Positions 1,369 through 52,519 of a stretch of DNA of 64,000 bases are shown here, in pieces. Source of the stretch: Candidatus Magasanikiibacteriota bacterium (GTDB lineage Bacteria > Patescibacteriota > Patescibacteriia > Magasanikbacterales > UBA922); contig JACPSK010000003.1 in assembly GCA_016193335.1 (NCBI GenBank), positions 23,739 through 87,738 on the forward strand, read 5' to 3'. A program made the position numbers and the translations under genes. Position 1 is the stretch's first letter. Each line of letters starts with the position of its first letter. The notes under the pieces are model-generated. The model did not search any database, was not told the origin of the DNA, and was given only the letters and a program-made list of their open reading frames with translations.

Positions 1369-2532
1369 ATGGCAGAAAAAATGTTGTTTACTTCAGAATC
1401 CGTAACCGAGGGGCATCCGGACAAAATTTGCGATCAAATTTCAGACGCCGTGCTTGACGCGGTCTTGAAAGACGATCCGGATGGCGCTTGTTGTTGTGAA
1501 GTTTTTACTACCACTGGTCTTGTGGTGGTCGGTGGAGAAATAACCACCAAAACTTATGTGGATATTCCAGCCATTGTGAGAGGCACTTTAAAAGATATCG
1601 GTTACACCAATCCTGAATACGGAATAGATTATAAGAGTTGCGGCGTGGTGGTGGCAGTGGACGAGCAGAGCCCGGACATAGCTCAAGGAGAAAAAACAGA
1701 TCAGGGAGAACATAAAGCCCAGGGGGCCGGAGATCAGGGGATGATGTTTGGATTTGCTTGCAAAGAAACGCCTCAGCTTATGCCTTTGCCGATTATGTTG
1801 GCTCATGGCTTAACCAAGCGTTTGGCGAGAGTTCGGAAAAAAGGTGAGCTTCCCTATCTGCGGCCGGATGGCAAAAGCCAGGTAACGGTGGAGTATGAAG
1901 ACGGAAAACCAAAACGCGTGGACGCCGTGGTTATCGCGGCTCAGCATGACCCCGGTATTACGCTTGAAAAATTGAGACAAGACATCAGGGAGCATGTTAT
2001 TCTTCCGGTCTGCGGCGCTTATCTGGATGATAAGACAAAGTATTATATCAACGAGACAGGGAATTTTATTATAGGCGGTCCGCATGGAGACACGGGCGTT
2101 ACGGGAAGAAAAATAATTGTAGATACTTATGGCGGAATGGGCAGACATGGCGGCGGCGCTTTTTCCGGAAAAGTCCCCAATAAACAAGATCGTTCAGGTG
2201 CCTACATGGCTCGCTATGTGGCAAAGAATGTCGTAGCCGCTGATTTGGCAGACAAATGCGAAGTTCAGCTTTCTTATGCCATAGGATATCCTGAACCGGT
2301 GAGTATTTTGCTTGATGCTTTTGGCACTTCCAGAGTGCCGAATGAGATACTGGTAAGAGCGGTTCGTGAGGTTTTTGATCTGACTCCGGCCGGTATTATC
2401 AAACAACTGGATTTGAAACGTCCCATATACAAGGAAACCGCGGCCTATGGACATTTTGGGAGAGAAGAATTTCCATGGGAAAAGACAGATAAAATTGAAG
2501 CATTGAAGCAGGCGGTGGAAAAGTTAAGTTAA
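1369..2532 (+). CDS. metK: S-adenosylmethionine synthetase
   Basis: N-terminus [30 protein letters not shown]-like loop, 387 aa full-length MetK architecture. Confidence 0.95.
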
Positions 2533-2678
2533 ATTAAAGTATTTTTTATCGAGTTCATTTAGGTTCTGTAATTTTATATAAGAAATAAAATAACGAGCAT
2601 TGGTATGCTGGTTATTTTGTGTATCGCATTATCTTACATGGAGTATCTGTTCAGGTCCGGATGACAATTTAGATATCT

Positions 2679-3089
2679 TTAGCTTTGTCGGCTTCCTCCG
2701 CAGAGTACGTCCGCGAGCGGCTCCAGAAGTTCTGAACCAGCGTAAGGCTTGGCGACAAAGGCCAGATTTGTGTTTGCGCCCACTTGAATTCTGAACGCTT
2801 GGCGCAGAGTTTGATCTGCGTTCCCACCATGTTTAGAAATTTTCGCGCTCGTGACAACAAGAGCCCTGATCGGCCGAATCTTGGCGAGTCTACCCGCCAA
2901 TTCATCGCCGTTCATGCCAGGCATATTGTAATCCGTGATTACGGCATCGCAATCAACTGAAGCAAAAAGCCTTAGAGCGGTCTCTGCGTCAGTTGCGCTA
3001 TGCACCATGTAGCCAGCGCTTTGAAGGAAAATTTCAGTGACCCACAAAAGATCTTCTTGATCATCAATCAATAGGATTTGTACCGGCAT
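2679..3089 (-). CDS. Stand-alone response-regulator receiver domain protein (CheY-like)
   Basis: ILLIDDQ..VITDYNMPGMNG..AKP receiver signature. Start moved to the internal ATG at 3087-3089, which has an AAGGA RBS (ORF track 2679..3167). No output domain. Confidence 0.8.
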   Translation of the reverse strand: MPVQILLIDDQEDLLWVTEIFLQSAGYMVHSATDAETALRLFASVDCDAVITDYNMPGMNGDELAGRLAKIRPIRALVVTSAKISKHGGNADQTLRQAFRIQVGANTNLAFVAKPYAGSELLEPLADVLCGGSRQS

Positions 3090-3267
3090 ATTGTCCTTTA
3101 TGCCCACCCGGACCCGTCTGGACACATATACCAATTTTTTTTTGTTTTGTAAAGGCGGAGGTAGCAACAGGAATTTTTATGAACATTCGGTGTAACATCT
3201 TGTATGTTCGTCAGGATTGTTTTCCAATACAGACATTTTATAATCTGCATTGACTTTAAGAATTTAA

Positions 3268-3287
3268 AAAAGCGCGAAGCGCTTTCT
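3268..3287 (-). terminator. Palindromic hairpin AAAGCGCGAAGCGCTTT with flanking A/T runs, downstream of the receiver gene at 3326..3682
   Basis: Perfect 7-bp GC-rich stem and 3-nt loop, T-run on the minus strand. Confidence 0.45.
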
Positions 3288-3325
3288 ATTATATTGATTG
3301 GGCCGGACAAGTCCAATCGATCAAA

Positions 3326-3682
3326 CTATCGGGCCAGGTCTTTCAGAGCGCTGACATCAATGGGTTTGTCAAGGAATCCTCTCGCATGGCCAGAGGCCAG
3401 CGCAGAATCAACTTGAGAGGCAAAACGGCCTCTACTCGCAGACATCAGCCACAGCGGCATCTTGTGGCCTGACAAGTGGAGGCGAGCGGCAAATTCCAAG
3501 CCGTTCATGCCCGGCATCTCTATATCAGAGAATATTATGCGCGGGGCATGTGTTTCTACAAACACCAGTCCTTTTGCAGGGTCATCGACCCAATGGACTT
3601 TGTGTCCTGCTCCTTCAAGTGTGTAGACCATGAAAAATGCCGTTGTTGGATCGTCGTCGACGATCAGAATACCATTCCTCAA
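3326..3682 (-). CDS. Stand-alone response-regulator receiver domain protein (CheY-like)
   Basis: ILIVDDDP...IIFSDIEMPGMNG...FLDKP. 118 aa, single domain. Confidence 0.8.
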   Translation of the reverse strand: MRNGILIVDDDPTTAFFMVYTLEGAGHKVHWVDDPAKGLVFVETHAPRIIFSDIEMPGMNGLEFAARLHLSGHKMPLWLMSASRGRFASQVDSALASGHARGFLDKPIDVSALKDLAR

Positions 3683-3835
3683 TGTTGCCTCTTTTACCTT
3701 GTTTTGCTCTTTTTGATCATCCGGTTTCTTTGTCCGGGGTCAAGAGTATATCTGATTATATTCCGATTGTCAAGGAAAAAATGAAAAAAATTGTGAACAA
3801 CTACGAGTCTGTCTCTTCATCACATATTTTTGGAA

Positions 3836-3915
3836 AGCCTAGGGACGAGTGCGAGAGCGAAGCGGGCTGACTTCCGCAGGATTTATAAAATATGTTATGA
3901 AGGGGTAGACGTCAT
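3836..3915 (-). repeat. Copy A of modular intergenic repeat family (H1 module + M2 module, M2 inverted relative to other copies)
   Basis: Shares GCGAGAGCGAAGCGGGCTGA and CCTTCATAACATATTTTATAAATCCT-like modules with copies at 8684-8760, 28861-28930 and 48648-48712. Confidence 0.6.
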
Positions 3916-3962
3916 ATTTTTACAAAATATAAAAACCCCGCGCATTGATTGCTTACGGGGTT
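3916..3962 (-). terminator. Rho-independent terminator for the GC-rich receiver-like gene (AACCCCG..CGGGGTT stem, T-run on minus strand)
   Basis: 7-bp GC stem. Minus-strand downstream sequence TTTTTATATTTTGTAAAAA. Confidence 0.55.
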
Positions 3963-4107
3963 CTTGAGAAGAGGAAATGTCCGGGTGAAGCTCGCGCGGT
4001 GCTTGGTTTTCGCACTTCCCTCGTGGCTTGCCCAACAGCCGTTTGATGATCCGAACGAGCGGACCGCGGTTTGGGCTTGCCGTGGGATACTCTAGATGAG
4101 CAGGGGT

Positions 4108-4407
4108 TTAATTTCTCGAGCTCGCCAAAGGGGCGAGCAGATCTGGCAAGGCCACGATATCCGCGGCCGAGAGCGTGAAGACCATGAATTCCCTTTTTTC
4201 CAGAGAGCCGAGCTCTCTGATCAGGGTCTCCCGGTTCATAAAGCGGGAATCCACCCGCTCGGCGACGATCACGGCGACCAGGCCTGTCTCACGACGGGCG
4301 GTCTCCAGAGCGTCTTTACTCTCAGAGGCACAGAACACATCCCAGCCATGCTTGCGCAAGAGCCGGGTGAGTCCGTAGCCTCCGTTGTCAATAACGAGAA
4401 TTTTCAT
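4108..4407 (-). CDS. Atypical receiver-domain protein (pseudo-receiver: DN instead of DD pair, Glu at predicted phospho-acceptor position), GC-rich gene
   Basis: MKILVIDNGG...VAVIVAERVD..., 99 aa. Strong RBS AAGAGGAGG 6 nt upstream. About 58% GC against a roughly 42% background. Confidence 0.6.
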   Translation of the reverse strand: MKILVIDNGGYGLTRLLRKHGWDVFCASESKDALETARRETGLVAVIVAERVDSRFMNRETLIRELGSLEKREFMVFTLSAADIVALPDLLAPLASSRN

Positions 4408-4569
4408 CCCTGCCTCCTCTTAAGCGCGAGGAAGCACCCGGACAGTGCTTGGAATATAGCATGGTTAAGCCAATTTGTCAATCATAAGCATTGATTTTTT
4501 CGTTGATTTTAGATAGTATAAGCCTGTATCGGGCTTAATTTAGTGGTTAGCATTTTCTCTTCTTGATTT

Positions 4570-5379
4570 ATGAACAGTGTTCAAGCACTTGTTCTCGGCA
4601 TCATCCAAGGATTGACTGAATTTTTGCCGATTTCATCTTCCGGCCATCTTATTTTTGTACCTCGTTTATTCGGCTGGGCTGACCAAGGCTTAACATTTGA
4701 CGCGGTGGTTCATCTCGGTTCTTTGTTTGCGGTACTTGTGTATTTTCGCTCTCGGATTCTAAGCATGCTCGGGTCTTTGTGCACCAGATCTGTTGGTGAA
4801 TCAGACCGCAAAGAACGCAAGCTTGCTTTTTTACTGGCAGTCTCCATAGTGCCGGCGGCTTTGGGCGGTTTGTTTTTTCAAAATTGGATTGAAAACTCTT
4901 TACGTTCTGTTTTTATTATCTCTTTCAGCCTCATATTCTGGGGCATAATTTTGGGATGGGCAGATAGATTGGCGATAAAAAGAAATAAATCTTTTTCTTT
5001 GGACAATTTGTCTTTCTCCAAAACAGTCTTGATTGGAATTGCTCAGGCTTTGGCTCTGATCCCCGGCACCAGCAGGTCTGGAGTAACGATGAGCGCGGGT
5101 TTATTTCTTGGCCTCGACAAAAAATCAGCCGCTGATTTTTCTTTTCTCATGAGCGTGCCGATTATCGCCATAGCAGGGGCCTTAAAAATATTCGATCTGG
5201 TTCGAACCGGTTGGGGACATATCCAGATTTTGCCTTTGGGCATTGGGTTTTTTGCCGCGGCCCTGAGCGGCTTTCTCGCCATTGCTGGTTTAATGAAGAT
5301 TATTCAGAAATGGAGTTTTATGCCTTTTGTGGTTTATAGGGTAGCAATGGGAATTTTGATACTTGTTTTTTTCGTGTAA
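4570..5379 (+). CDS. uppP: Undecaprenyl-diphosphatase (BacA/UppP)
   Basis: LGIIQGLTEFLPISSSGHL and PGTSRSGVTMSAGL motifs. 8 TM. Confidence 0.9.
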   Translation: MNSVQALVLGIIQGLTEFLPISSSGHLIFVPRLFGWADQGLTFDAVVHLGSLFAVLVYFRSRILSMLGSLCTRSVGESDRKERKLAFLLAVSIVPAALGGLFFQNWIENSLRSVFIISFSLIFWGIILGWADRLAIKRNKSFSLDNLSFSKTVLIGIAQALALIPGTSRSGVTMSAGLFLGLDKKSAADFSFLMSVPIIAIAGALKIFDLVRTGWGHIQILPLGIGFFAAALSGFLAIAGLMKIIQKWSFMPFVVYRVAMGILILVFFV

Positions 5380-6801: not shown

Positions 6802-6839
6802 CTGTGTTTTTGGTTTTTTAAAAATCAGAGTTCTCGGTT

Positions 6840-7170
6840 TAGGTAGCCGCGGGCGTCCGTCATCCTCACTTTGCGCAGGGGAGCCCGCGCCGTGAATTGG
6901 AATCCGAACGCCCGTGGCCGAGCTGTGTCCGCGAATAGTTAAGTACGAAGCCCGTAAAGAGGTTTGTGGCGAGGGTGAAGGGGAGGCGGCCTGGCCACTC
7001 TCGTTACGGTCTCTGCACTTTTTTTTCCGCGAAGCAGCGCAATCTAGCCTAACGCGTTTAACTCTCTCTTGTCAAATAGCTACCTTGAATACAGTGCGAA
7101 TGAAGAAGATTAATGGGCGCCAATGGAGCGCGGGGCATGAGGTCTGAACCCTGTCCTGTCTCAATCTACT
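6840..7170. ncRNA. GC-rich (about 57%) non-coding islet, candidate structured RNA (class not identified)
   Basis: 330 bp with no credible ORF (the 77-aa ORF at 6914..7147 has compositional-artifact character) and sharp GC contrast with flanks. Minus strand carries TTGACA-N18-TAGGCT promoter-like element near 7045-7075. Not matched to tmRNA, RNase P or SRP consensus by eye. Confidence 0.25.
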
Positions 7171-7236
7171 GTTTTTTGTATTGTCTGTAGATCTGCGGTA
7201 TCCGTACTATCCGTATTTTGCCTAAGTCAGGTTTGC

Positions 7237-8656: not shown

Positions 8657-8683
8657 AAATCCCGTTTATTCGGGATTTTTATA
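8657..8683 (+). terminator. Rho-independent terminator AAAATCCCG-TTTATT-CGGGATTTTTAT after the SPFH gene
   Basis: Perfect hairpin plus T-run. Confidence 0.65.
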
Positions 8684-8760
8684 AATCCTATGGAGTCAGC
8701 CCACTTCGCTCTCGCATTCGTCTTTAGGCCTTCTATAAAAATATCTTATGAAGGAACAGG
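8684..8760 (-). repeat. Copy D of modular intergenic repeat family
   Basis: GTCAGCCCACTTCGCTCTCGCATTCGTC (reverse complement of the GCGAGAGCGAAGYGGGCTGAC module) followed by CTATAAAAATATCTTATGAAGG. Confidence 0.6.
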
Positions 8761-30342: not shown

Positions 30343-31956
30343 ATGAAAAACTTTTTGCGTCCATATATTTTAGTTTTTGTTTTTTTGGCACTGTTTTATT
30401 TCATCCAAGAAGCCAATGCAGAAGTAAAACTTCCGTATTATCAGGCCTTAAGCGGGTACGGACAGTATGCCGCTTATGACAAAGGCGGTGATATTTATCT
30501 GTTTGATGCCGAAACAAAAACAGAGAAAAAAATAAATACTCACAATTCATTGAACGGATATGCTGGTATCACTGTTCTGTCCACGGGAGTATTCTGGGGA
30601 GAGGGTGCTGTGGGCGCGGATATTTATAGCTATGATTTTTTAACCCAGAAAACGAGCAAGTTACTCTCAACAACGGCAATAGGGACAATGGAAAAAAAGG
30701 CTGAACTTCGTTCATTTAGGATGTTGTCTCCGACATTTTTTGAGTATCGTCTTTTGCCGGCTGGTTCTGAAGATTCTGTGTATAGCAAAAATAAATATTA
30801 CAATATTGCCAATAAAAAAATTTACGGCCAAACCGATTTTGACGCAAATACGGCGCAAGGCACCAAAACGTACGGGGATGAATTTGAGATATTTAGATTG
30901 AATGCGGGAGAACCGTTTGGCGCGGGGCACATTTATGGTTTTTCCGTAGTTGCCGTAGACGGAGATGAATTGCTTATGTTCGGTTATGGCAATGACAATT
31001 CTGGCACCAAAGAAGGTGAGTATATTGAATACCGCATTCATAATCTAAGCAACGCCAACACACTACAATTTGGGTCTGCCAGCCAAAAAATTCTTTATAC
31101 CAGCTTTATTACCCCAAATAATCAATTTTCGTATACCAATTTTATATTTGGTCTTTCTGGGGATGAAAAAAATGGGACTGAATCATATTATCGTTTGGAT
31201 AGAAAATCGCCATATACATCTGAATTAGTTACTACACTAATTCAGTCTTCAAACAGCGGCTATACACAGGCACAGGCGTACGGAGCAGACTCCTTGGTTT
31301 GGGAGAAGACGAAGGGTTCGGGGATTCATCAATGGTATCGTGTGGATGATAAAAAAACCTGCATTTTGGCAAAATCACTTCCCGTACCGCCTAGCCTTAG
31401 GGTAGTAACTCGTAGTCATTTTTTTTGGCTTGAAGGAAACACAATAAAGGGGCAAAAGCTTGTTTGTCAGGGAGAAAATGTAAGCAATGTTCAAGAAAAT
31501 CAGAACAAAACGGCTGTGACTAAAGACCTTATCAAATCAAGTGCTTCTCCGGCCGTGTATTACTTGGGCGCGGATGGCAAACGTTATGTATTTTTCAATG
31601 CCGATTTATACTTTACCTGGTACAGTGATTTTTCATCCGTCAAAACCATCTCGCCAAATGAACTCAGTAACATCATGATTGGCGGGAATGTCACATACAG
31701 ACCGGGCACATTGGTAAAAATTCAAACTGACCCTCGTGTCTACGCCGTTGATCGCGGTGGAGTTTTGCGTTGGATAAATGGTGAACAAGTGGCTAAATCG
31801 ATTTTTGGATTGAATTGGGCCGCTAAAATAAAAGTAGTGCCCGATTTTCTGTTTACGAATTATCGCTTGGGGGATGCTATTTCTTCAAATAGTGACTTCA
31901 ATTCCGAGCAAGCCGAATCCGGTTCACCTGATATCAATACTGACAAAGGACTATAG
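30343..31956 (+). CDS. Large secreted hypothetical protein (537 aa)
   Basis: Cleavable signal peptide ending ...QEANA. No recognisable catalytic motif. Possible beta-rich repeats. Confidence 0.45.
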   Translation: MKNFLRPYILVFVFLALFYFIQEANAEVKLPYYQALSGYGQYAAYDKGGDIYLFDAETKTEKKINTHNSLNGYAGITVLSTGVFWGEGAVGADIYSYDFLTQKTSKLLSTTAIGTMEKKAELRSFRMLSPTFFEYRLLPAGSEDSVYSKNKYYNIANKKIYGQTDFDANTAQGTKTYGDEFEIFRLNAGEPFGAGHIYGFSVVAVDGDELLMFGYGNDNSGTKEGEYIEYRIHNLSNANTLQFGSASQKILYTSFITPNNQFSYTNFIFGLSGDEKNGTESYYRLDRKSPYTSELVTTLIQSSNSGYTQAQAYGADSLVWEKTKGSGIHQWYRVDDKKTCILAKSLPVPPSLRVVTRSHFFWLEGNTIKGQKLVCQGENVSNVQENQNKTAVTKDLIKSSASPAVYYLGADGKRYVFFNADLYFTWYSDFSSVKTISPNELSNIMIGGNVTYRPGTLVKIQTDPRVYAVDRGGVLRWINGEQVAKSIFGLNWAAKIKVVPDFLFTNYRLGDAISSNSDFNSEQAESGSPDINTDKGL

Positions 31957-48647: not shown

Positions 48648-48712
48648 AAGCCTATCCCTTTACAACATATTTTAGAAATCCTAAGAACGAACGCGAGAGC
48701 GAAGCGGGCTGA
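48648..48712 (+). repeat. Copy B of modular intergenic repeat family
   Basis: GCCTATCCCTTTACAACATATTTTAGAAATCCT + AAGAACGAACGCGAGAGCGAAGCGGGCTGA. Sits between convergent genes. Confidence 0.6.
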
Positions 48713-48722
48713 AATGTGCCTT

Positions 48723-50867
48723 TTAATCCTGAGCCGATCGGGCTTGATAAGTAAATATTACAAGAGTTCCATTATCAATCGAGGTCCAGTTATCCGCGCT
48801 GAGCTTTGCCCCTTCGGCTATCTCATCAAATTTTTTCCAGAAGGAACTCAGCACAAAATAAGCTTTCTCTGCGCCGGTTTTTTTCATGATGTCTTCCATG
48901 TATTCTCTTTTTTGTCCTTCATACAACATACGCTGATAGACCTGAAAGGCATAGGCTCCCGTGGGAATGGAATAGTAAAACATCGGCCCCTCGTTTGTGT
49001 CAAAATATTTCGCGAAACTATATTCTGTGATTGCGGCCGCCGCGGTGACAGGATTTGAGAGAACCATGTAGCGGTAATCGGCATTATCCTCGTGTATCCA
49101 TTGCACGGCTTTGAAATCGGACTCGCTTACATGGTAGCCGGGGAAATGAACTTTCGGATTTTCCTGAGGGTAACTCAGATATAATGAAAGTGTCAGAACG
49201 AATCCTCCCAAACCGCAGACGATAATTTTTATCATTTTTTTGTGACAATAAAGTGCCCTTATTCGTTTTGATTCAAACCAGCTTTCGATTTGTGTTATCA
49301 CGTTATAGAATCCATACATGGCAAAAGGAAGGAGAAATATGACGCTTGAAGTCAATAGTCTCGTGGGGTATCCGCCCTGTTCAAAAGCCCCCACATTGGG
49401 GAATACAATCCAGCTTCTCAAGAGAAAGGCCCCAATGATAAACCCCAGCGCCGCGGCTGGGTAGATATAGTATTTTATTTTTTTGTTTTGCCACTTGGTA
49501 AAACCATAGATGGAGAAACCTAAAACGACAGGAGTTATTAAAGTTTGCCAGCCGTAAAGTAGCTCAAACAGGAGCGGAGACTCCTTTGAATACCAATAGG
49601 GCCTTTTGAATAGTTCCAGGAAAAGATTTATTTTATCAAAAGGATTTATAAAATGAGGCATTTCGAAGCCGTTCAACAAGATATAGAGCGTGAACATCGC
49701 GGGAAACAAAAACGCGAGCCCGGTGCCTATCAAGGCGAGCAGTCCGGTTGAGATTTTTGTTTTATATTCGCTGGCTTCCAACAAGCGGGCTGTCAAAACG
49801 AACAAAACAGCGGGTGCTCCTAAAAGTGGATGAATCATAAGCCCTGCCAAAGCGAGTATTCCTACCCTAAACCAGGATCTGTGTTTTTCTTGGCAAGACA
49901 GAACTCCGCATACGATCAATATACTGAGGAGAATAAGCAGATTGTGCGGGGTACTGAGATGCAAAGAAAGAAAAAATATAAAAGGGATGAACCATACCAG
50001 ATTGACTGACGCGGATTCGGGTATATTCCATGTTTTTTTTAGAGTATCGGAAATGATGAGAGGAAGGCTGAGAGCCGATAAAACAGGCAAAAGCATTATG
50101 TCTATATATTGGAGAGGCAGAGCGCTGATATTGGAAAGCCAGACCACAAAACTATACTGGCCGATATAAATTGGCTGTCTCGGAAGTATAAAACCATTAC
50201 TTTGAATTAAGAGTTCGGTAGCTCTATGTATGAGCCCGTCGAAACCAAATCCGAGAGGATACATCACCAGAGCGATTGAGTAGGTGAAAAATATATGCAG
50301 TATCGTGGCCGCGTAGCGTGTCATTTTGGAAGATGTTTCAGAAACGAGATACAGGAGAAAAGCCGTACTGATGCCATACCCGATGAAAAAAAATGGCCCT
50401 AGCTTGAGCCAGGGAGAGTTTGCCCCGTTCGTTATTGGATGAGACAGCAGAATAGAAAATAAAGCCATTTCCAAACAGACGAAGAGGTACATGGTAAGCC
50501 AAGAGTTTTTTTGTTTCTTCCATTCCGTGCTTATAAAGCCTTCTTCGATTTTGGTTTTTTTAAAGAAGATCAAAAGGGGGACAGCGAGCAATAATACTGA
50601 GCTTATTTTTGTGATGCCAAAAATATAATAGAGCGCCGTTCCTACAATAAAAAGCACACTCAACAAAGTGAGAAGATCCCAGATTGCTGAGGATTTTTTT
50701 TCTTTGCTGAACCAATGGCCGAGCGCGCTGCAAAGACACCCAAAATAAAAAACCGTAAGAGGGAATCCCAAGAAAACATTTTTTATGTATAAGGTATTCA
50801 AGACGAGAACGCCGCAAGAGCAGAGGGCGCCGTAGAAAATAAATTTTTTACTAATCCGTATTTTCAT
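48723..50867 (-). CDS. Large polytopic membrane protein (about 16 TM) with C-terminal soluble domain; possible glycan polymerase/GT-C-like, function unknown
   Basis: 714 aa, very hydrophobic, no diagnostic motif recognised. Confidence 0.45.
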   Translation of the reverse strand: MKIRISKKFIFYGALCSCGVLVLNTLYIKNVFLGFPLTVFYFGCLCSALGHWFSKEKKSSAIWDLLTLLSVLFIVGTALYYIFGITKISSVLLLAVPLLIFFKKTKIEEGFISTEWKKQKNSWLTMYLFVCLEMALFSILLSHPITNGANSPWLKLGPFFFIGYGISTAFLLYLVSETSSKMTRYAATILHIFFTYSIALVMYPLGFGFDGLIHRATELLIQSNGFILPRQPIYIGQYSFVVWLSNISALPLQYIDIMLLPVLSALSLPLIISDTLKKTWNIPESASVNLVWFIPFIFFLSLHLSTPHNLLILLSILIVCGVLSCQEKHRSWFRVGILALAGLMIHPLLGAPAVLFVLTARLLEASEYKTKISTGLLALIGTGLAFLFPAMFTLYILLNGFEMPHFINPFDKINLFLELFKRPYWYSKESPLLFELLYGWQTLITPVVLGFSIYGFTKWQNKKIKYYIYPAAALGFIIGAFLLRSWIVFPNVGAFEQGGYPTRLLTSSVIFLLPFAMYGFYNVITQIESWFESKRIRALYCHKKMIKIIVCGLGGFVLTLSLYLSYPQENPKVHFPGYHVSESDFKAVQWIHEDNADYRYMVLSNPVTAAAAITEYSFAKYFDTNEGPMFYYSIPTGAYAFQVYQRMLYEGQKREYMEDIMKKTGAEKAYFVLSSFWKKFDEIAEGAKLSADNWTSIDNGTLVIFTYQARSAQD

Positions 50868-51101: not shown

Positions 51102-51734
51102 ATGCGCTTATTCAATAGACTCTCAGCGTTAAAAGATAAACATCCTGCTCTTTTTGAATATCTTCCTGCAAAGGAAGTTTTTCCTCATGATTATTTCATG
51201 GATCGTTTTGTCCTTCGTTTTTTGCCTGCTCGCAGCACCCCGAACGGGATCACCATTCTGAGAATTTGTCTTACTCCTTTTGTTTTTTTGGTAACTTTGT
51301 ATGGCCATTATCGTTTCGGAGTTATTTTATTTTTACTGACCGCTTTTACGGACGCCATTGATGGCTCTTTGGCCCGTACCCGAAATAAAATAACTCGTTT
51401 TGGCATGCTTTTTGATCCTTTGGCCGATAAACTTTTGATCGGGTCCATGGTTTTGCTTTTGGTGTTTCGCTATCTGAATGTTTTCCTTGGCATCGCGATT
51501 TTGGGGATTGAAATTATATTTATTGTCAGTGCTTTGGTCGCCAAAATAAAATTTAAAACAGTAAAGATGGCCGACCGATGGGGGAAGCTCAAAATGTTTT
51601 TTCAAGTTATTGCCATGTCTTTGATCATGATAGCCTTACTCATTGATTTTCCTTATTTATTGACCGTCGCGGCATGGGTCTTTGGTTTGGCGATCGGATT
51701 TGCTATATTAAGTCTATTTAGACATGGTATATAA
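51102..51734 (+). CDS. CDP-alcohol phosphatidyltransferase family protein
   Basis: DAIDGSLARTRNKITRFGMLFDPLADK, the D-G-x2-A-R-x8-G-x3-D-x3-D motif. Confidence 0.8.
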   Translation: MRLFNRLSALKDKHPALFEYLPAKEVFPHDYFMDRFVLRFLPARSTPNGITILRICLTPFVFLVTLYGHYRFGVILFLLTAFTDAIDGSLARTRNKITRFGMLFDPLADKLLIGSMVLLLVFRYLNVFLGIAILGIEIIFIVSALVAKIKFKTVKMADRWGKLKMFFQVIAMSLIMIALLIDFPYLLTVAAWVFGLAIGFAILSLFRHGI

Positions 51735-51781: not shown

Positions 51782-52519
51782 TTAAAAACGAGCTCTGCGC
51801 CGTGCCGCTCTCCTGAGTTTGATCTTGTGCCAGAGGCTGGCAAGACCAAAAAGAAGGGCGACTGCAAAGAACAAAGCCGCCAGGATAACGAAGAACCCGT
51901 GCAGCTCTGGCATGGCAAGAACCAGAGCCCCGACCCCGCAGGTCTCGGCGAGCATCTTGATCTTGCCCGAGCCAGGGGCTTTCAAGCTTATGCTTGAATG
52001 GCCTGCTTTTGCCCGGATTAAATCTTGTACTCTCACGACCGTGAGGAGGATTTCCAAGGCAACAACGCCGAGAGCGAGTGGCAGAGCGATGATGCTCATC
52101 ACCAAGCCAAGTGTGCTCACCTCCTGGAATCGGGCCGCGCTGAGCGGCAAGAGGGCCAAAACCGTGATGATGAGGCCCTTGTCGCAGAGGGCGTCAACCG
52201 CGGCTCCGATGACTTCGTCGTCGCCGCAGTTATGGTACACCTTGCGCCAGTGCGCCAAGCGTCCGTCAAACCAATCGGTGAGGGATGCTACCGCGAAGAG
52301 CGCGAAAGCCTCCCATACACGGCCGCTCGCCGCGATGAAAGCAATGGGCACCGCGAGGACTACTCGCGACAGCGAGACCCAATTGGGCCTGATGTAAGCC
52401 CAGAGTTTCCAAGGGCCTACTTTTTCATCAAGCCTTGCGTTCAATGCTTTGACGCGGGCCATAAGCTGACCGCTGAACGGCCGCACGGCCGCGCTCGCGC
52501 TTTTAAGCACTTGATCCAT
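51782..52519 (-). CDS. CDP-alcohol phosphatidyltransferase family protein, GC-rich paralog (about 57-60% GC)
   Basis: DWFDGRLAHW....GAAVDALCDK variant of the CDP-OH-P-transferase motif (the Arg position is His). Compositionally foreign. Confidence 0.65.
   Translation of the reverse strand: MDQVLKSASAAVRPFSGQLMARVKALNARLDEKVGPWKLWAYIRPNWVSLSRVVLAVPIAFIAASGRVWEAFALFAVASLTDWFDGRLAHWRKVYHNCGDDEVIGAAVDALCDKGLIITVLALLPLSAARFQEVSTLGLVMSIIALPLALGVVALEILLTVVRVQDLIRAKAGHSSISLKAPGSGKIKMLAETCGVGALVLAMPELHGFFVILAALFFAVALLFGLASLWHKIKLRRAARRRARF

What the first reader, a model, noticed from the sequence alone, without database searches (positions are those of the whole stretch)
2679..4440. Three tandem single-domain receiver genes on a GC-elevated block, the third a pseudo-receiver with Glu at the phospho-acceptor position, and no kinase or output domain
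Three minus-strand genes (2679-3089, 3326-3682, 4108-4407) each encode only a CheY-like receiver domain. The first two have canonical DD...D(MPGMNG)...KP signatures.

The third has DN instead of the acidic pair and the pattern VAVIVAERVD, where Glu replaces the phosphorylatable Asp. That is a phosphomimetic or pseudo-receiver configuration. It also has a strong GGAGG RBS.

The block is 52-58% GC against roughly 42-46% in the flanking metK and uppP. This suggests acquisition as a module. No histidine kinase, Hpt, chemotaxis or output-domain gene is within 60 kb on either side.

Each gene has its own terminator, and a dispersed-repeat copy separates genes 2 and 3. Stand-alone receivers usually act in phosphorelays or as phosphate sinks. 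An orphan trio with a built-in pseudo-receiver is unusual and may be a novel signalling or sequestration module.
Basis: partly seen in the sequence, partly recalled or inferred. Interest (0 to 1): 0.6.

Follow-up and report, generated by a model that had tools for sequence, protein, structure and literature searches.

The report
Truncated pseudo-receiver beside two stand-alone receivers
Three small, separately transcribed signalling-receiver genes sit between uppP and metK in a Magasanikbacteria (CPR) genome: two look like ordinary phosphorylatable receivers, and the third belongs to a tiny lineage-specific family of shortened pseudo-receivers that probably cannot be phosphorylated, so this is a modest variant of a known theme that built up stepwise and was not acquired as one module.

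Summary
The three minus-strand genes are real. g1 (2679-3089) and g2 (3326-3682) match Pfam Response_reg and keep all five active-site residues.

g3 (4108-4407) has no Pfam hit, but it is a genuine coding gene (dN/dS about 0.25-0.3). It is receiver-derived by profile-profile alignment (96.9%) and by fold search on an AlphaFold model (pLDDT 81.5). Its active site is degenerate: D7=D12, N8=D13, E50=D57, S80=T87, and no Lys at K109. The model has only four beta-alpha units, with no beta5/alpha5.

Asn and Glu at these two positions are the usual bacterial pseudo-receiver substitutions.

The "acquired module" reading is not supported:
- Each gene has its own promoter-like site and terminator hairpin.
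- The g3 family has only five protein clusters; the two whose source is named are Magasanikbacteria.
- In distant relatives, the g3 homologue is the only gene between uppP and metK.
- A closer relative has g3 and g2 but not g1.

No kinase or Hpt gene was found in about 79 kb of the contig. The rest of the genome could not be searched.

Two results remain unexplained. The g3 transcription unit is a GC island (GC3 70% against 45%) with roughly 3-7-fold lower synonymous divergence than its neighbours. A g3 homologue elsewhere is also flanked by unrelated receiver genes.

The parts
4108..4407 (-). g3: 99-aa truncated pseudo-receiver (D7, N8, E50, S80, no Lys; predicted (beta-alpha)4)
   Evidence: ORF. 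No Pfam hit. dN/dS 0.25-0.30, with substitutions concentrated at codon position 3. hhalign to a receiver profile 96.9%, with E50 = CheY D57. AlphaFold pLDDT 81.5. Foldseek top hits are receiver domains.
4408..4481 (-). g3 promoter-like site (TTGACA-17-TATATT with TG, 4481-4453) and 5'UTR with GAGGAGG RBS that can pair with an upstream CUUCCUC
   Evidence: Promoter scan, 11 of 12 matches. Sequence. Fold -16.3 kcal/mol but z only -0.96. Conserved in L012 and L013.
3925..4107 (-). g3 GC-rich 3'UTR ending in a strong intrinsic terminator (hairpin about 3931-3965 plus U-run)
   Evidence: Fold -17.8 kcal/mol, z -3.93. Whole-UTR fold z -2.5. 75-78% identical to L012, against 55-63% for other intergenic stretches.
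3809..3890 (.). Copy of a dispersed repeat of about 80 nt between g3 and g2; absent from the related locus L012
   Evidence: BLAST copies at window 8677-8759, 48649-48712 and L001 19728-19787. Alignment. No supported structure.
3745..3773 (-). g2 promoter-like site (TTGACA-17-TATACT)
   Evidence: Promoter scan, 11 of 12 matches.
3326..3682 (-). g2: 118-aa canonical stand-alone receiver (TTG start; D9, D10, D53, S81, K106)
   Evidence: Pfam Response_reg 7.7e-20, profile positions 1-109 of 111. Residue mapping. Orthologue in L012.
3262..3287 (-). g2 terminator hairpin (AAAGCGC-UUC-GCGCUUU plus U-run)
   Evidence: Fold -9.6 kcal/mol, z -2.5. The palindrome was also picked up by the scan.
3288..3315 (-). 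Possible g1 promoter (TGGACT-16-TATAAT); uncertain because it lies just upstream of the g2 terminator hairpin
   Evidence: Promoter scan, 10 of 12 matches.
2679..3089 (-). g1: 136-aa canonical stand-alone receiver (D9, D10, D53, S81, K114) with an extra segment of about 8 residues between beta4 and beta5; absent from L012
   Evidence: Pfam Response_reg 8.6e-15. Residue mapping. Window 2669-3254 has no counterpart in L012.
2585..2620 (-). AT-rich hairpin plus U-run between the convergent g1 and metK (terminator-like)
   Evidence: Fold of 2560-2680, z -2.49.

Best explanation
**Overall reading.** The uppP-metK interval of this Candidatus Magasanikbacteria genome holds three independently transcribed genes of the CheY-like receiver superfamily. 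They accumulated stepwise and are not an operon or a co-acquired module.

**g3** is probably the original occupant of the slot. It belongs to a very small family of proteins of about 100 residues, seen so far only in Magasanikbacteria-type loci.
- The proteins are receiver domains shortened to four beta-alpha units, lacking beta5/alpha5.
- In this lineage the second metal-binding Asp is Asn, the phospho-acceptor is Glu, and the catalytic Lys is missing.
- Inference: g3 cannot be phosphorylated and works as a small binding protein.
- The most likely binding target is a partner of two-component signalling. That could be a kinase's docking surface or a neighbouring stand-alone receiver, contacted through the conserved alpha1/beta2 face.

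**g2, and later g1,** are canonical stand-alone receivers with a complete active site.
- They were added downstream of g3 at different times.
- Inference: they receive phosphate from a histidine kinase encoded elsewhere in the genome, or from small phosphodonors.

**Shown:** gene reality, receiver homology, residue mapping, predicted truncation, separate promoter-like sites and terminator hairpins, and the phyletic pattern.

**Inferred:** non-phosphorylatability of g3, its binding role, and the remote kinase.
For: **Homology**
- g1 and g2 match Pfam Response_reg and have the full residue quintet.
- g3 is coding: dN/dS 0.25-0.30, an in-frame 3-nt indel, and third-position bias.
- The g3 family aligns to a receiver profile at 96.9% probability, E 2e-10, g3 residues 1-81 to CheY 6-88. 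The mapping is D7/N8/E50/S80 to D12/D13/D57/T87, with no Lys.
- The AlphaFold model built on 5 sequences has pLDDT 81.5 and a beta1-alpha1-beta2-alpha2-beta3-alpha3-beta4-alpha4 topology.
- Foldseek top hits are nearly all receiver domains: probability 1.00, TM 0.6-0.7, rmsd about 2.1-2.8 A over 80-85 columns.

**Family size**
- Only 5 clusters were found among 5.8 billion proteins, and 3 representatives among 1.84 billion.

**Synteny**
- P0007 (33% identical, keeps Asp and PGM) is the only gene between uppP and metK in L014-L017.
- L012 has g3 and g2 but lacks g1 and the dispersed repeat.

**Transcription**
- Each gene has its own promoter-like site and terminator hairpin.

**Literature**
- Asn at DD2, Glu at D and Arg at K are the commonest pseudo-receiver substitutions (PMC12632262).
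- P0007 and P0008 have Arg-Pro where receivers have Lys-Pro.
Against: - Pfam and NCBIfam do not recognise g3. Foldseek E-values are only 2e-3 to 4e-2.
- The first AlphaFold run was poor, pLDDT 65.6.
- The g3 alignment is based on 5 sequences, so the exact register around E50 could be off by one. An HMM-only alignment stopped at I47.
- No binding partner or kinase was identified. Only about 79 kb of the genome could be inspected.
- A g3 homologue in L018 is also flanked on the same strand by receiver-type genes. This argues for some functional coupling, which the 'independent accretion' reading underplays.
Confidence: 0.6

Rival explanations
1. The three genes form a functional module. The pseudo-receiver g3 would modulate or sequester the two phosphorylatable receivers, or compete with them for a kinase, forming a phosphate-sink or decoy circuit.
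For: - They lie in tandem on one strand.
- g3 and g2 are kept together in L012.
- In L018 a 33%-identical g3 homologue lies between a divergent receiver-like ORF and a canonical 163-aa receiver on the same strand.
- So g3-family genes are followed by stand-alone receivers in 3 of 4 lineages.
- Exposed alpha1 residues (L13, T14, R18) are invariant across the family.
Against: - Each gene has a separate promoter-like site and terminator.
- The neighbouring receivers are not orthologous between lineages.
- L014-L017 have the g3 homologue alone, and g1 is absent from L012.
- The three genes differ in GC3 and in dS.
Confidence: 0.2
2. The GC-rich, slowly diverging g3 segment owes its oddities to a second function of the nucleic acid, such as a structured RNA or an antisense transcript or ORF. 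The small protein would then not be the main product.
For: - GC3 is 70% in a background of 45%.
- pS is 0.22 against 0.45-0.68 in flanking genes.
- A 132-aa antisense ORF at 4096-4494 stays open in the relatives.
- The 3'UTR folds with z -2.5.
Against: - No Rfam family matches, even at E<=10.
- Substitutions fall on sense codon position 3, which is antisense position 1 (coordinate arithmetic).
- dN/dS is 0.25 in the sense frame.
- Open antisense frames are expected in GC3-rich genes.
Confidence: 0.08
3. g3 is not derived from a receiver. It would be an unrelated small flavodoxin-like or Rossmann-like protein whose resemblance is generic.
For: - No Pfam or NCBIfam receiver hit.
- The first fold search returned mixed flavodoxin-like folds.
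- PDB sequence hits are at noise level and include ankyrin designs.
Against: - hhalign gives 96.9% over 77 columns, with motif-by-motif correspondence.
- The homologue P0007 keeps the 'TDEILPGM' acceptor motif and scores 24.7 bits against a receiver HMM.
- The sensitive search hit N-terminal receivers of P0006 and P0009.
- The second fold search is dominated by receivers.
Confidence: 0.06
4. g3 is a decaying remnant of a once full-length receiver and has no function.
For: - It lacks beta5/alpha5 and three of the five catalytic residues.
- It is followed by a long untranslated stretch of about 140 nt before the terminator hairpin.
Against: - It is under purifying selection.
- The length of about 100 aa and the C-terminal motif (A/G-x-P-D/E-x-L) are kept in homologues only 33% identical.
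- It has a near-consensus promoter and a strong RBS, conserved in relatives.
Confidence: 0.05

Closest known systems
Bacterial pseudo-receiver (PsR) / aspartate-less receiver (ALR) domains, as reviewed in PMC12632262 and PMC4395418
   Same: - Receiver-derived fold with catalytic residues lost.
- g3 carries the typical substitutions: DD2 to Asn and D to Glu. Its homologues carry K to Arg.
- No adjacent kinase is encoded, as for most characterised atypical regulators.
   Different: - Not recognised by PF00072, nor by any other Pfam model (which includes the minor PsR families) at E<=1.
- Predicted to be truncated to four beta-alpha units, about 99 aa.
- Stand-alone, with no output domain.
- The family is only five clusters; the two with a source name are Magasanikbacteria.
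Stand-alone single-domain response regulators (CheY, Spo0F, DivK/CpdR type; Pfam PF00072)
   Same: - g1 and g2 consist of a receiver domain only, with the complete DD/D/S/K quintet.
- The closest solved sequences to g1 are the RpfC receiver domain, a 116-residue PDB chain annotated only as 'response regulator', and CheY proteins.
   Different: - No che, Hpt or kinase genes nearby.
- Scores are far below the NCBIfam cut-offs for CpdR (about 36-37 bits against 180) and, for g2, the DivK-like family (36.6 against 160).
- No close relatives above about 48% identity in 185,579 species genomes (searched with g2) or in JGI metagenomes (searched with g1).
FrzS receiver of Myxococcus and plant pseudo-response regulators (Glu at the acceptor site)
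   Same: - Receiver folds that are not phosphorylated at the acceptor position (PMC1974792 and PMC12632262); from my own knowledge they act through protein-protein contacts.
- FrzS appears among the Foldseek hits.
   Different: - From my own knowledge, those are full five-stranded receivers fused to other domains.
- g3 is a shortened, free-standing protein.

Membership tests
Response_reg receiver domain (PF00072): g1 and g2 | Score above the Pfam gathering threshold over nearly the whole model | tested here: met
   g1 scores 55.3 bits (profile positions 1-107 of 111). g2 scores 71.6 bits (1-109 of 111). The cut-off is 30.2.
Response_reg receiver domain (PF00072): g1 and g2 | Five conserved active-site residues (DD, D, T/S, K) | tested here: met
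   g1: D9, D10, D53, S81, K114. g2: D9, D10, D53, S81, K106. Both from an alignment with CheY, Spo0F and PhoB.
Response_reg receiver domain (PF00072): g3 | Score above the Pfam gathering threshold | tested here: not met
   No Response_reg hit at E<=1. The homologues P0007 and P0008 also have none.
Pseudo-receiver (PsR/ALR): g3 | Recognisably homologous to receiver domains | tested here: met
   hhalign 96.9%, E 2e-10. A custom receiver HMM gives 14-25 bits. Foldseek hits are dominated by receivers. Standard domain software does not detect it.
Pseudo-receiver (PsR/ALR): g3 | [quoted passage not shown] | tested here: met
   N8 at D13, E50 at D57, and no Lys at K109 (L87-P88 in its place).
Pseudo-receiver (PsR/ALR): g3 | Complete (beta-alpha)5 receiver fold | tested here: not met
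   The AlphaFold model has four strands and four helices and ends at residue 99. The local hhalign match ends at CheY residue 88. This is a prediction only.
Pseudo-receiver (PsR/ALR): g3 | Not phosphorylated in practice | not testable with these tools
   Needs biochemistry.
Phosphorelay (Spo0F-type) or chemotaxis (CheY-type) system | Hpt/Spo0B, CheA/CheW/MCP or a histidine kinase encoded with, or near, the receivers | tested here: not met
   None found in record positions 56,096-135,108, by precomputed Pfam hits, fresh Pfam scans, and tblastn with a histidine kinase taken from a contig carrying a close OmpR-regulator homologue (L162).
Single operon or co-acquired module | Co-transcription and a shared phyletic pattern and composition | tested here: not met
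   Separate promoter-like sites and terminators. g1 is absent in L012, and both g1 and g2 are absent in L014-L017. GC3 is 48%, 53% and 70%. dS is 0.26 for g3 against 1.76 for g2.

The most novel reading that the evidence does not exclude
The g3 family may be a CPR-specific minimal adaptor derived from a receiver domain. Under this reading it is a four-unit pseudo-receiver that docks on two-component partners. It is repeatedly paired with interchangeable stand-alone receivers (window, L012, L018). It also moves between Magasanikbacteria species as a small cassette, which would explain why the g3 transcription unit is a GC island (GC3 70% against 45%) with roughly 3-7-fold lower synonymous divergence than its neighbours.
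Probability: 0.15. Interest if true: 0.5.

Novelty: new variant of a known kind. Interest (0 to 1): 0.3.

Why it matters
Pseudo-receivers are common, but how they work is mostly unknown. A free-standing version of about 100 residues, shortened to four beta-alpha units and retained under purifying selection in reduced CPR genomes, would be a very small system for studying what a receiver fold does without phosphorylation. The finding also illustrates that a run of similar small genes with raised GC need not be one acquired module. Here, synteny and divergence show three separate histories. In itself the locus does not overturn anything known about two-component signalling.

Tried and rejected
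- **GC-rich non-coding RNA instead of g3.** Rfam at gathering threshold on the whole window, Rfam at E<=10 on 2400-4700, and ARAGORN all found nothing.
- **Antisense ORF 4096-4494 as the real gene.** Rejected, because substitutions fall on its codon position 1.
- **First AlphaFold run (3 near-identical sequences).** pLDDT was 65.6 and the fold search was uninformative. It was superseded by the 5-sequence run.
- **PDB sequence search with the g3 profile.** Only noise-level hits.
- **Locating a kinase in this genome.**
  - I searched with the OmpR-type regulator that lies near the syntenic slot in L014. The hit list was saturated with Patescibacteria regulators 55-62% identical, and none could be assigned to this genome.
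  - Two follow-up look-ups (L162, L163) came from other samples.
- **Close relatives of g2 and g1.** A search of 185,579 species genomes with g2 and of JGI metagenomes with g1 gave only generic receiver similarity, at most 48% identity over partial length. No donor or paralogue could be named.
- **g1, g2 and g3 as recent tandem duplicates.** Rejected.
- **Conserved RNA structure in the dispersed repeat.** Not supported.
- **GC-rich gap 6802-7236 as a known RNA.** No Rfam match, fold z -1.6.
Full report
**Source of the window**

The window is positions 61,989-125,988 of contig CAYOIR010000004.1 (135,108 bp) of assembly GCA_964404105.1. An identical copy of the g3 protein is named by NCBI as a hypothetical protein of a Candidatus Magasanikbacteria bacterium, a member of the candidate phyla radiation (CPR).

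**Observation check**

- The three minus-strand ORFs are present: g1 2679-3089 (136 aa from the ATG), g2 3326-3682 (118 aa, TTG start) and g3 4108-4407 (99 aa).
- g1 and g2 match Pfam Response_reg at 8.6e-15 and 7.7e-20 over nearly the whole model.
- Aligned with CheY, Spo0F and PhoB, both keep all five catalytic residues. g1 has D9, D10, D53, S81, K114. g2 has D9, D10, D53, S81, K106.
- They match no specific NCBIfam family. For example, CpdR scores about 36-37 bits against a cut-off of 180.
- g3 gives no Response_reg hit even at E<=1, so its receiver nature had to be tested separately.

**Is g3 a real gene?**

Yes.
- Two diverged orthologues exist: P0002 in locus L012 (87% identical) and P0003 in L013 (90%).
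- Pairwise dN/dS is 0.25-0.30. Differences concentrate at codon position 3 (7/6/17 and 13/6/21). The only indel is one in-frame codon.
- The 132-aa ORF on the opposite strand (4096-4494) also stays open in the relatives. However, the variable positions are its codon position 1, so it is not the coding frame.
- Rfam and ARAGORN find no RNA gene here.

**Is g3 receiver-derived, and what sits at the acceptor position?**

- A HMMER search of 1.84 billion representative proteins found only seven hits at E<=0.001.
  - Three are the query's own representative and two remote homologues of about 100 aa, P0007 and P0008.
  - Two are the N-terminal receiver domains of a hybrid kinase (P0006) and of a triple-receiver protein (P0009).
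  - The other two are repetitive proteins.
- P0007 retains the motif TDEILPGM, that is, the acceptor Asp with the usual PGM.
- I aligned the five family members against a receiver alignment headed by CheY, using hhalign. The result was probability 96.9%, E 2e-10, with g3 residues 1-81 aligned to CheY 6-88.
- The residue mapping is D7=D12, N8=D13, E50=D57, S80=T87.
- No Lys corresponds to K109. g3 has L87-P88 there, whereas P0007 and P0008 have R-P.
- The first AlphaFold run used three near-identical sequences and was poor, pLDDT 65.6.
- The second run used five sequences and reached pLDDT 81.5, pTM 0.74. Its topology is beta1 (2-6), alpha1, beta2 (23-27), alpha2, beta3 (43-49), alpha3, beta4 (75-79), alpha4 (81-96).
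- E50 therefore sits just past the end of beta3, where the acceptor Asp lies in receivers. There is no beta5/alpha5.
- Foldseek against the PDB returned almost only receiver domains at the top: PmrA, ArlR, PorX, RssB, FixJ, KdpE, CheY and FrzS. Probability was 1.00, TM 0.6-0.7 and rmsd about 2.1-2.8 A over 80-85 columns, although E-values were only 2e-3 to 4e-2.
The addition is that the domain is predicted to be truncated and also lacks the Lys.
- According to a 2025 review, Asn at the second acidic position, Glu at D and Arg at K are the commonest substitutions in bacterial pseudo-receivers. Most characterised atypical regulators are orphans (PMC12632262).

**Family size and synteny**

- The g3 family comprises five 90%-identity clusters among 5.8 billion proteins. 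The two clusters that carry a source name are Magasanikbacteria; the other three come from unnamed contigs.
- In a distant, high-GC Magasanikbacterium (GW2011 lineage; loci L014-L017), the homologue P0007 is the only gene between uppP (BacA) and metK. It has the same orientation as g3.
- In L012, a closer relative, the slot holds g3 and g2. g1 (window 2669-3254) and the dispersed repeat are missing.
- Only the window's species has all three.
- g1 and g2 are 34% identical over 64 residues. g3 resembles neither in pairwise comparison, so they are not recent tandem duplicates.
- Neither g2 nor g1 has close relatives. The best matches were 42-48% identity over partial length, in 185,579 species genomes (g2) and in JGI metagenomes (g1).
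- The simplest history is that g3 is ancestral to the slot, g2 was added before the split from L012, and g1 was added later. Loss in the other lineages cannot be excluded.

**Transcription units**

- g3 has a near-consensus promoter-like site, TTGACA-17-TATATT with an upstream TG, at 4481-4453.
- g2 has TTGACA-17-TATACT at 3773-3745.
- g1 has a weaker site at 3315-3288, which lies awkwardly just upstream of the g2 terminator.
- Hairpins followed by U-runs lie after g3 (-17.8 kcal/mol, z -3.9), after g2 (z -2.5), and after g1 (AT-rich, between g1 and the convergent metK).
- The three genes therefore look monocistronic.

**Composition and divergence**

- Gene GC in the window averages 44.6% (sd 3.3) and GC3 averages 45%.
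- g1 is 50.1% GC (GC3 48%), g2 is 51.8% (GC3 53%) and g3 is 57.0% (GC3 70%, z = 5.2). The spacers inside the 'block' are 30-46% GC.
- The block is therefore not uniformly GC-rich. Only the g3 transcription unit, roughly 3925-4440, is a clear island.
- In L014 the whole region is 56% GC, so the homologue there is unremarkable. In the low-GC relatives L012 and L013, g3 is again 58-59% GC with GC3 of 70-72%.
- Against L012, g3 has dS of 0.26 (pS 0.22). The neighbours have dS of 0.94-1.76: uppP, cca, metK, Band7, hrcA and g2. Even the adjoining 40 codons of uppP have pS of 0.46.
- A binomial test of the g3 synonymous differences against a pS of 0.6 gives p = 4e-11.
- The g3 3'UTR is 75-78% identical to L012, whereas other intergenic stretches are 55-63% identical.
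- Two explanations remain open. One is recent lateral exchange of the g3 cassette, from or among higher-GC relatives, replacing the resident allele. The other is constraint on synonymous sites. I favour the first but could not test it.

**Kinase search**

- I combined precomputed Pfam hits for the called genes with fresh Pfam scans of the remaining and unannotated ORFs.
- I also ran a six-frame tblastn with a histidine kinase taken from L162, a contig that carries a close homologue of the L014 OmpR-type regulator.
- None of these found a HisKA, HATPase_c, Hpt, CheA/CheW or output-domain gene in record positions 56,096-135,108. That is about 69 kb on the uppP side, to the contig end, and 8.6 kb on the metK side.
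- 'No kinase nearby' stands. 'No kinase in the genome' is untested.
- In L014 an OmpR-type regulator and a kinase lie about 8 kb beyond metK.

**An observation that favours some coupling**

- In L018, the 33%-identical homologue P0008 lies on the same strand between two other receiver-type genes.
- The upstream one is a partial, divergent receiver-like ORF ('DLIITD', 'DYVQRF').
- The downstream one is a canonical 163-aa receiver (Pfam 4.5e-11) that is not orthologous to g1 or g2.
- g3-family genes are therefore followed by stand-alone receivers in three of four lineages.

**Mechanism**

- Most likely (confidence about 0.6 for the overall reading), g1 and g2 are ordinary phosphorylatable stand-alone receivers served by a remote kinase or by small phosphodonors.
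- g3 would be a non-phosphorylatable binding protein derived from a receiver. Invariant residues in alpha1 and beta2 (L13, T14, R18, D23, V24, C26, A27) point to a conserved interaction surface. From general knowledge of receiver-kinase complexes, this is the face receivers use to dock on kinases.
- Whether Glu50 acts as a phosphomimic is doubtful, because the Lys it would engage is absent.
- The rivals are a true three-gene module (0.2), a second nucleic-acid-level function of the GC island (0.08), a non-receiver origin (0.06) and a dead remnant (0.05).

**Verdict**

- The pseudo-receiver interpretation is right.
- The 'acquired module' interpretation is not supported.
- The locus is a modest new variant of a known kind: a truncated, free-standing, lineage-restricted pseudo-receiver next to orphan stand-alone receivers. 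Interest is 0.3.

Noticed in passing
window 3925-4440 (g3 transcription unit), compared with L012 and L013: The g3 coding sequence has GC3 of 70% against a genome value of 45%. Its synonymous divergence from L012 is 0.26, against 0.94-1.76 in flanking genes. Its 3'UTR is also more conserved than other intergenic DNA. Either the cassette was exchanged recently or its synonymous sites are constrained; this is unresolved.
   Followed up: partly
L018 1-1510: A g3 homologue (P0008, 504-815) is flanked on the same strand by a divergent receiver-like ORF (1-339) and a canonical 163-aa receiver (1011-1502). Neither is orthologous to g1 or g2. This is a second, independent 'receiver trio'.
   Followed up: partly
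window 3809-3890, 8677-8759, 48649-48712; L001 19728-19787: A dispersed intergenic repeat of about 80 nt with a conserved core (…GCGAGAGCGAAGCGGGCTGA…). It is absent from the corresponding site in L012. It has no Rfam match and no supported secondary structure.
   Followed up: partly
window 51782-52519 (-), next to 51102-51734 (+): A second strong GC outlier (GC 58%, GC3 68%) encodes a CDP-alcohol phosphatidyltransferase. It lies beside a paralogue that is not among the window's high-GC genes, which suggests a foreign or recently exchanged copy.
   Followed up: no
window 4408-4452 (-): In the g3 5'UTR the Shine-Dalgarno GAGGAGG can pair with an upstream CUUCCUC (-16.3 kcal/mol). Both arms are conserved in L012 and L013, but the fold is not better than shuffles (z -0.96).
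   Followed up: partly
L014 9707-11360: In the distant relative, an OmpR-type regulator and a multi-pass membrane histidine kinase lie about 8 kb from the uppP-g3-metK slot. The equivalent position in this genome lies beyond the DNA that could be fetched.
   Followed up: partly
window 48723-50867 (-) and 30343-31956 (+): Two large ORFs (714 aa and 537 aa) have no Pfam match at E<=0.01.
   Followed up: no
window 6802-7236: A 435-bp gap between cca and yidC is GC-rich (51-54%) and has no called gene. It is poorly conserved in L012 (55-63%), has no Rfam match, and folds with z -1.6.
   Followed up: partly
g3 residue C26 (window about 4330-4332): A Cys at the end of beta2 (motif DV-x-CA) is invariant in all five family members. 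Some atypical regulators are redox-controlled through a Cys, but at a different position.
   Followed up: no
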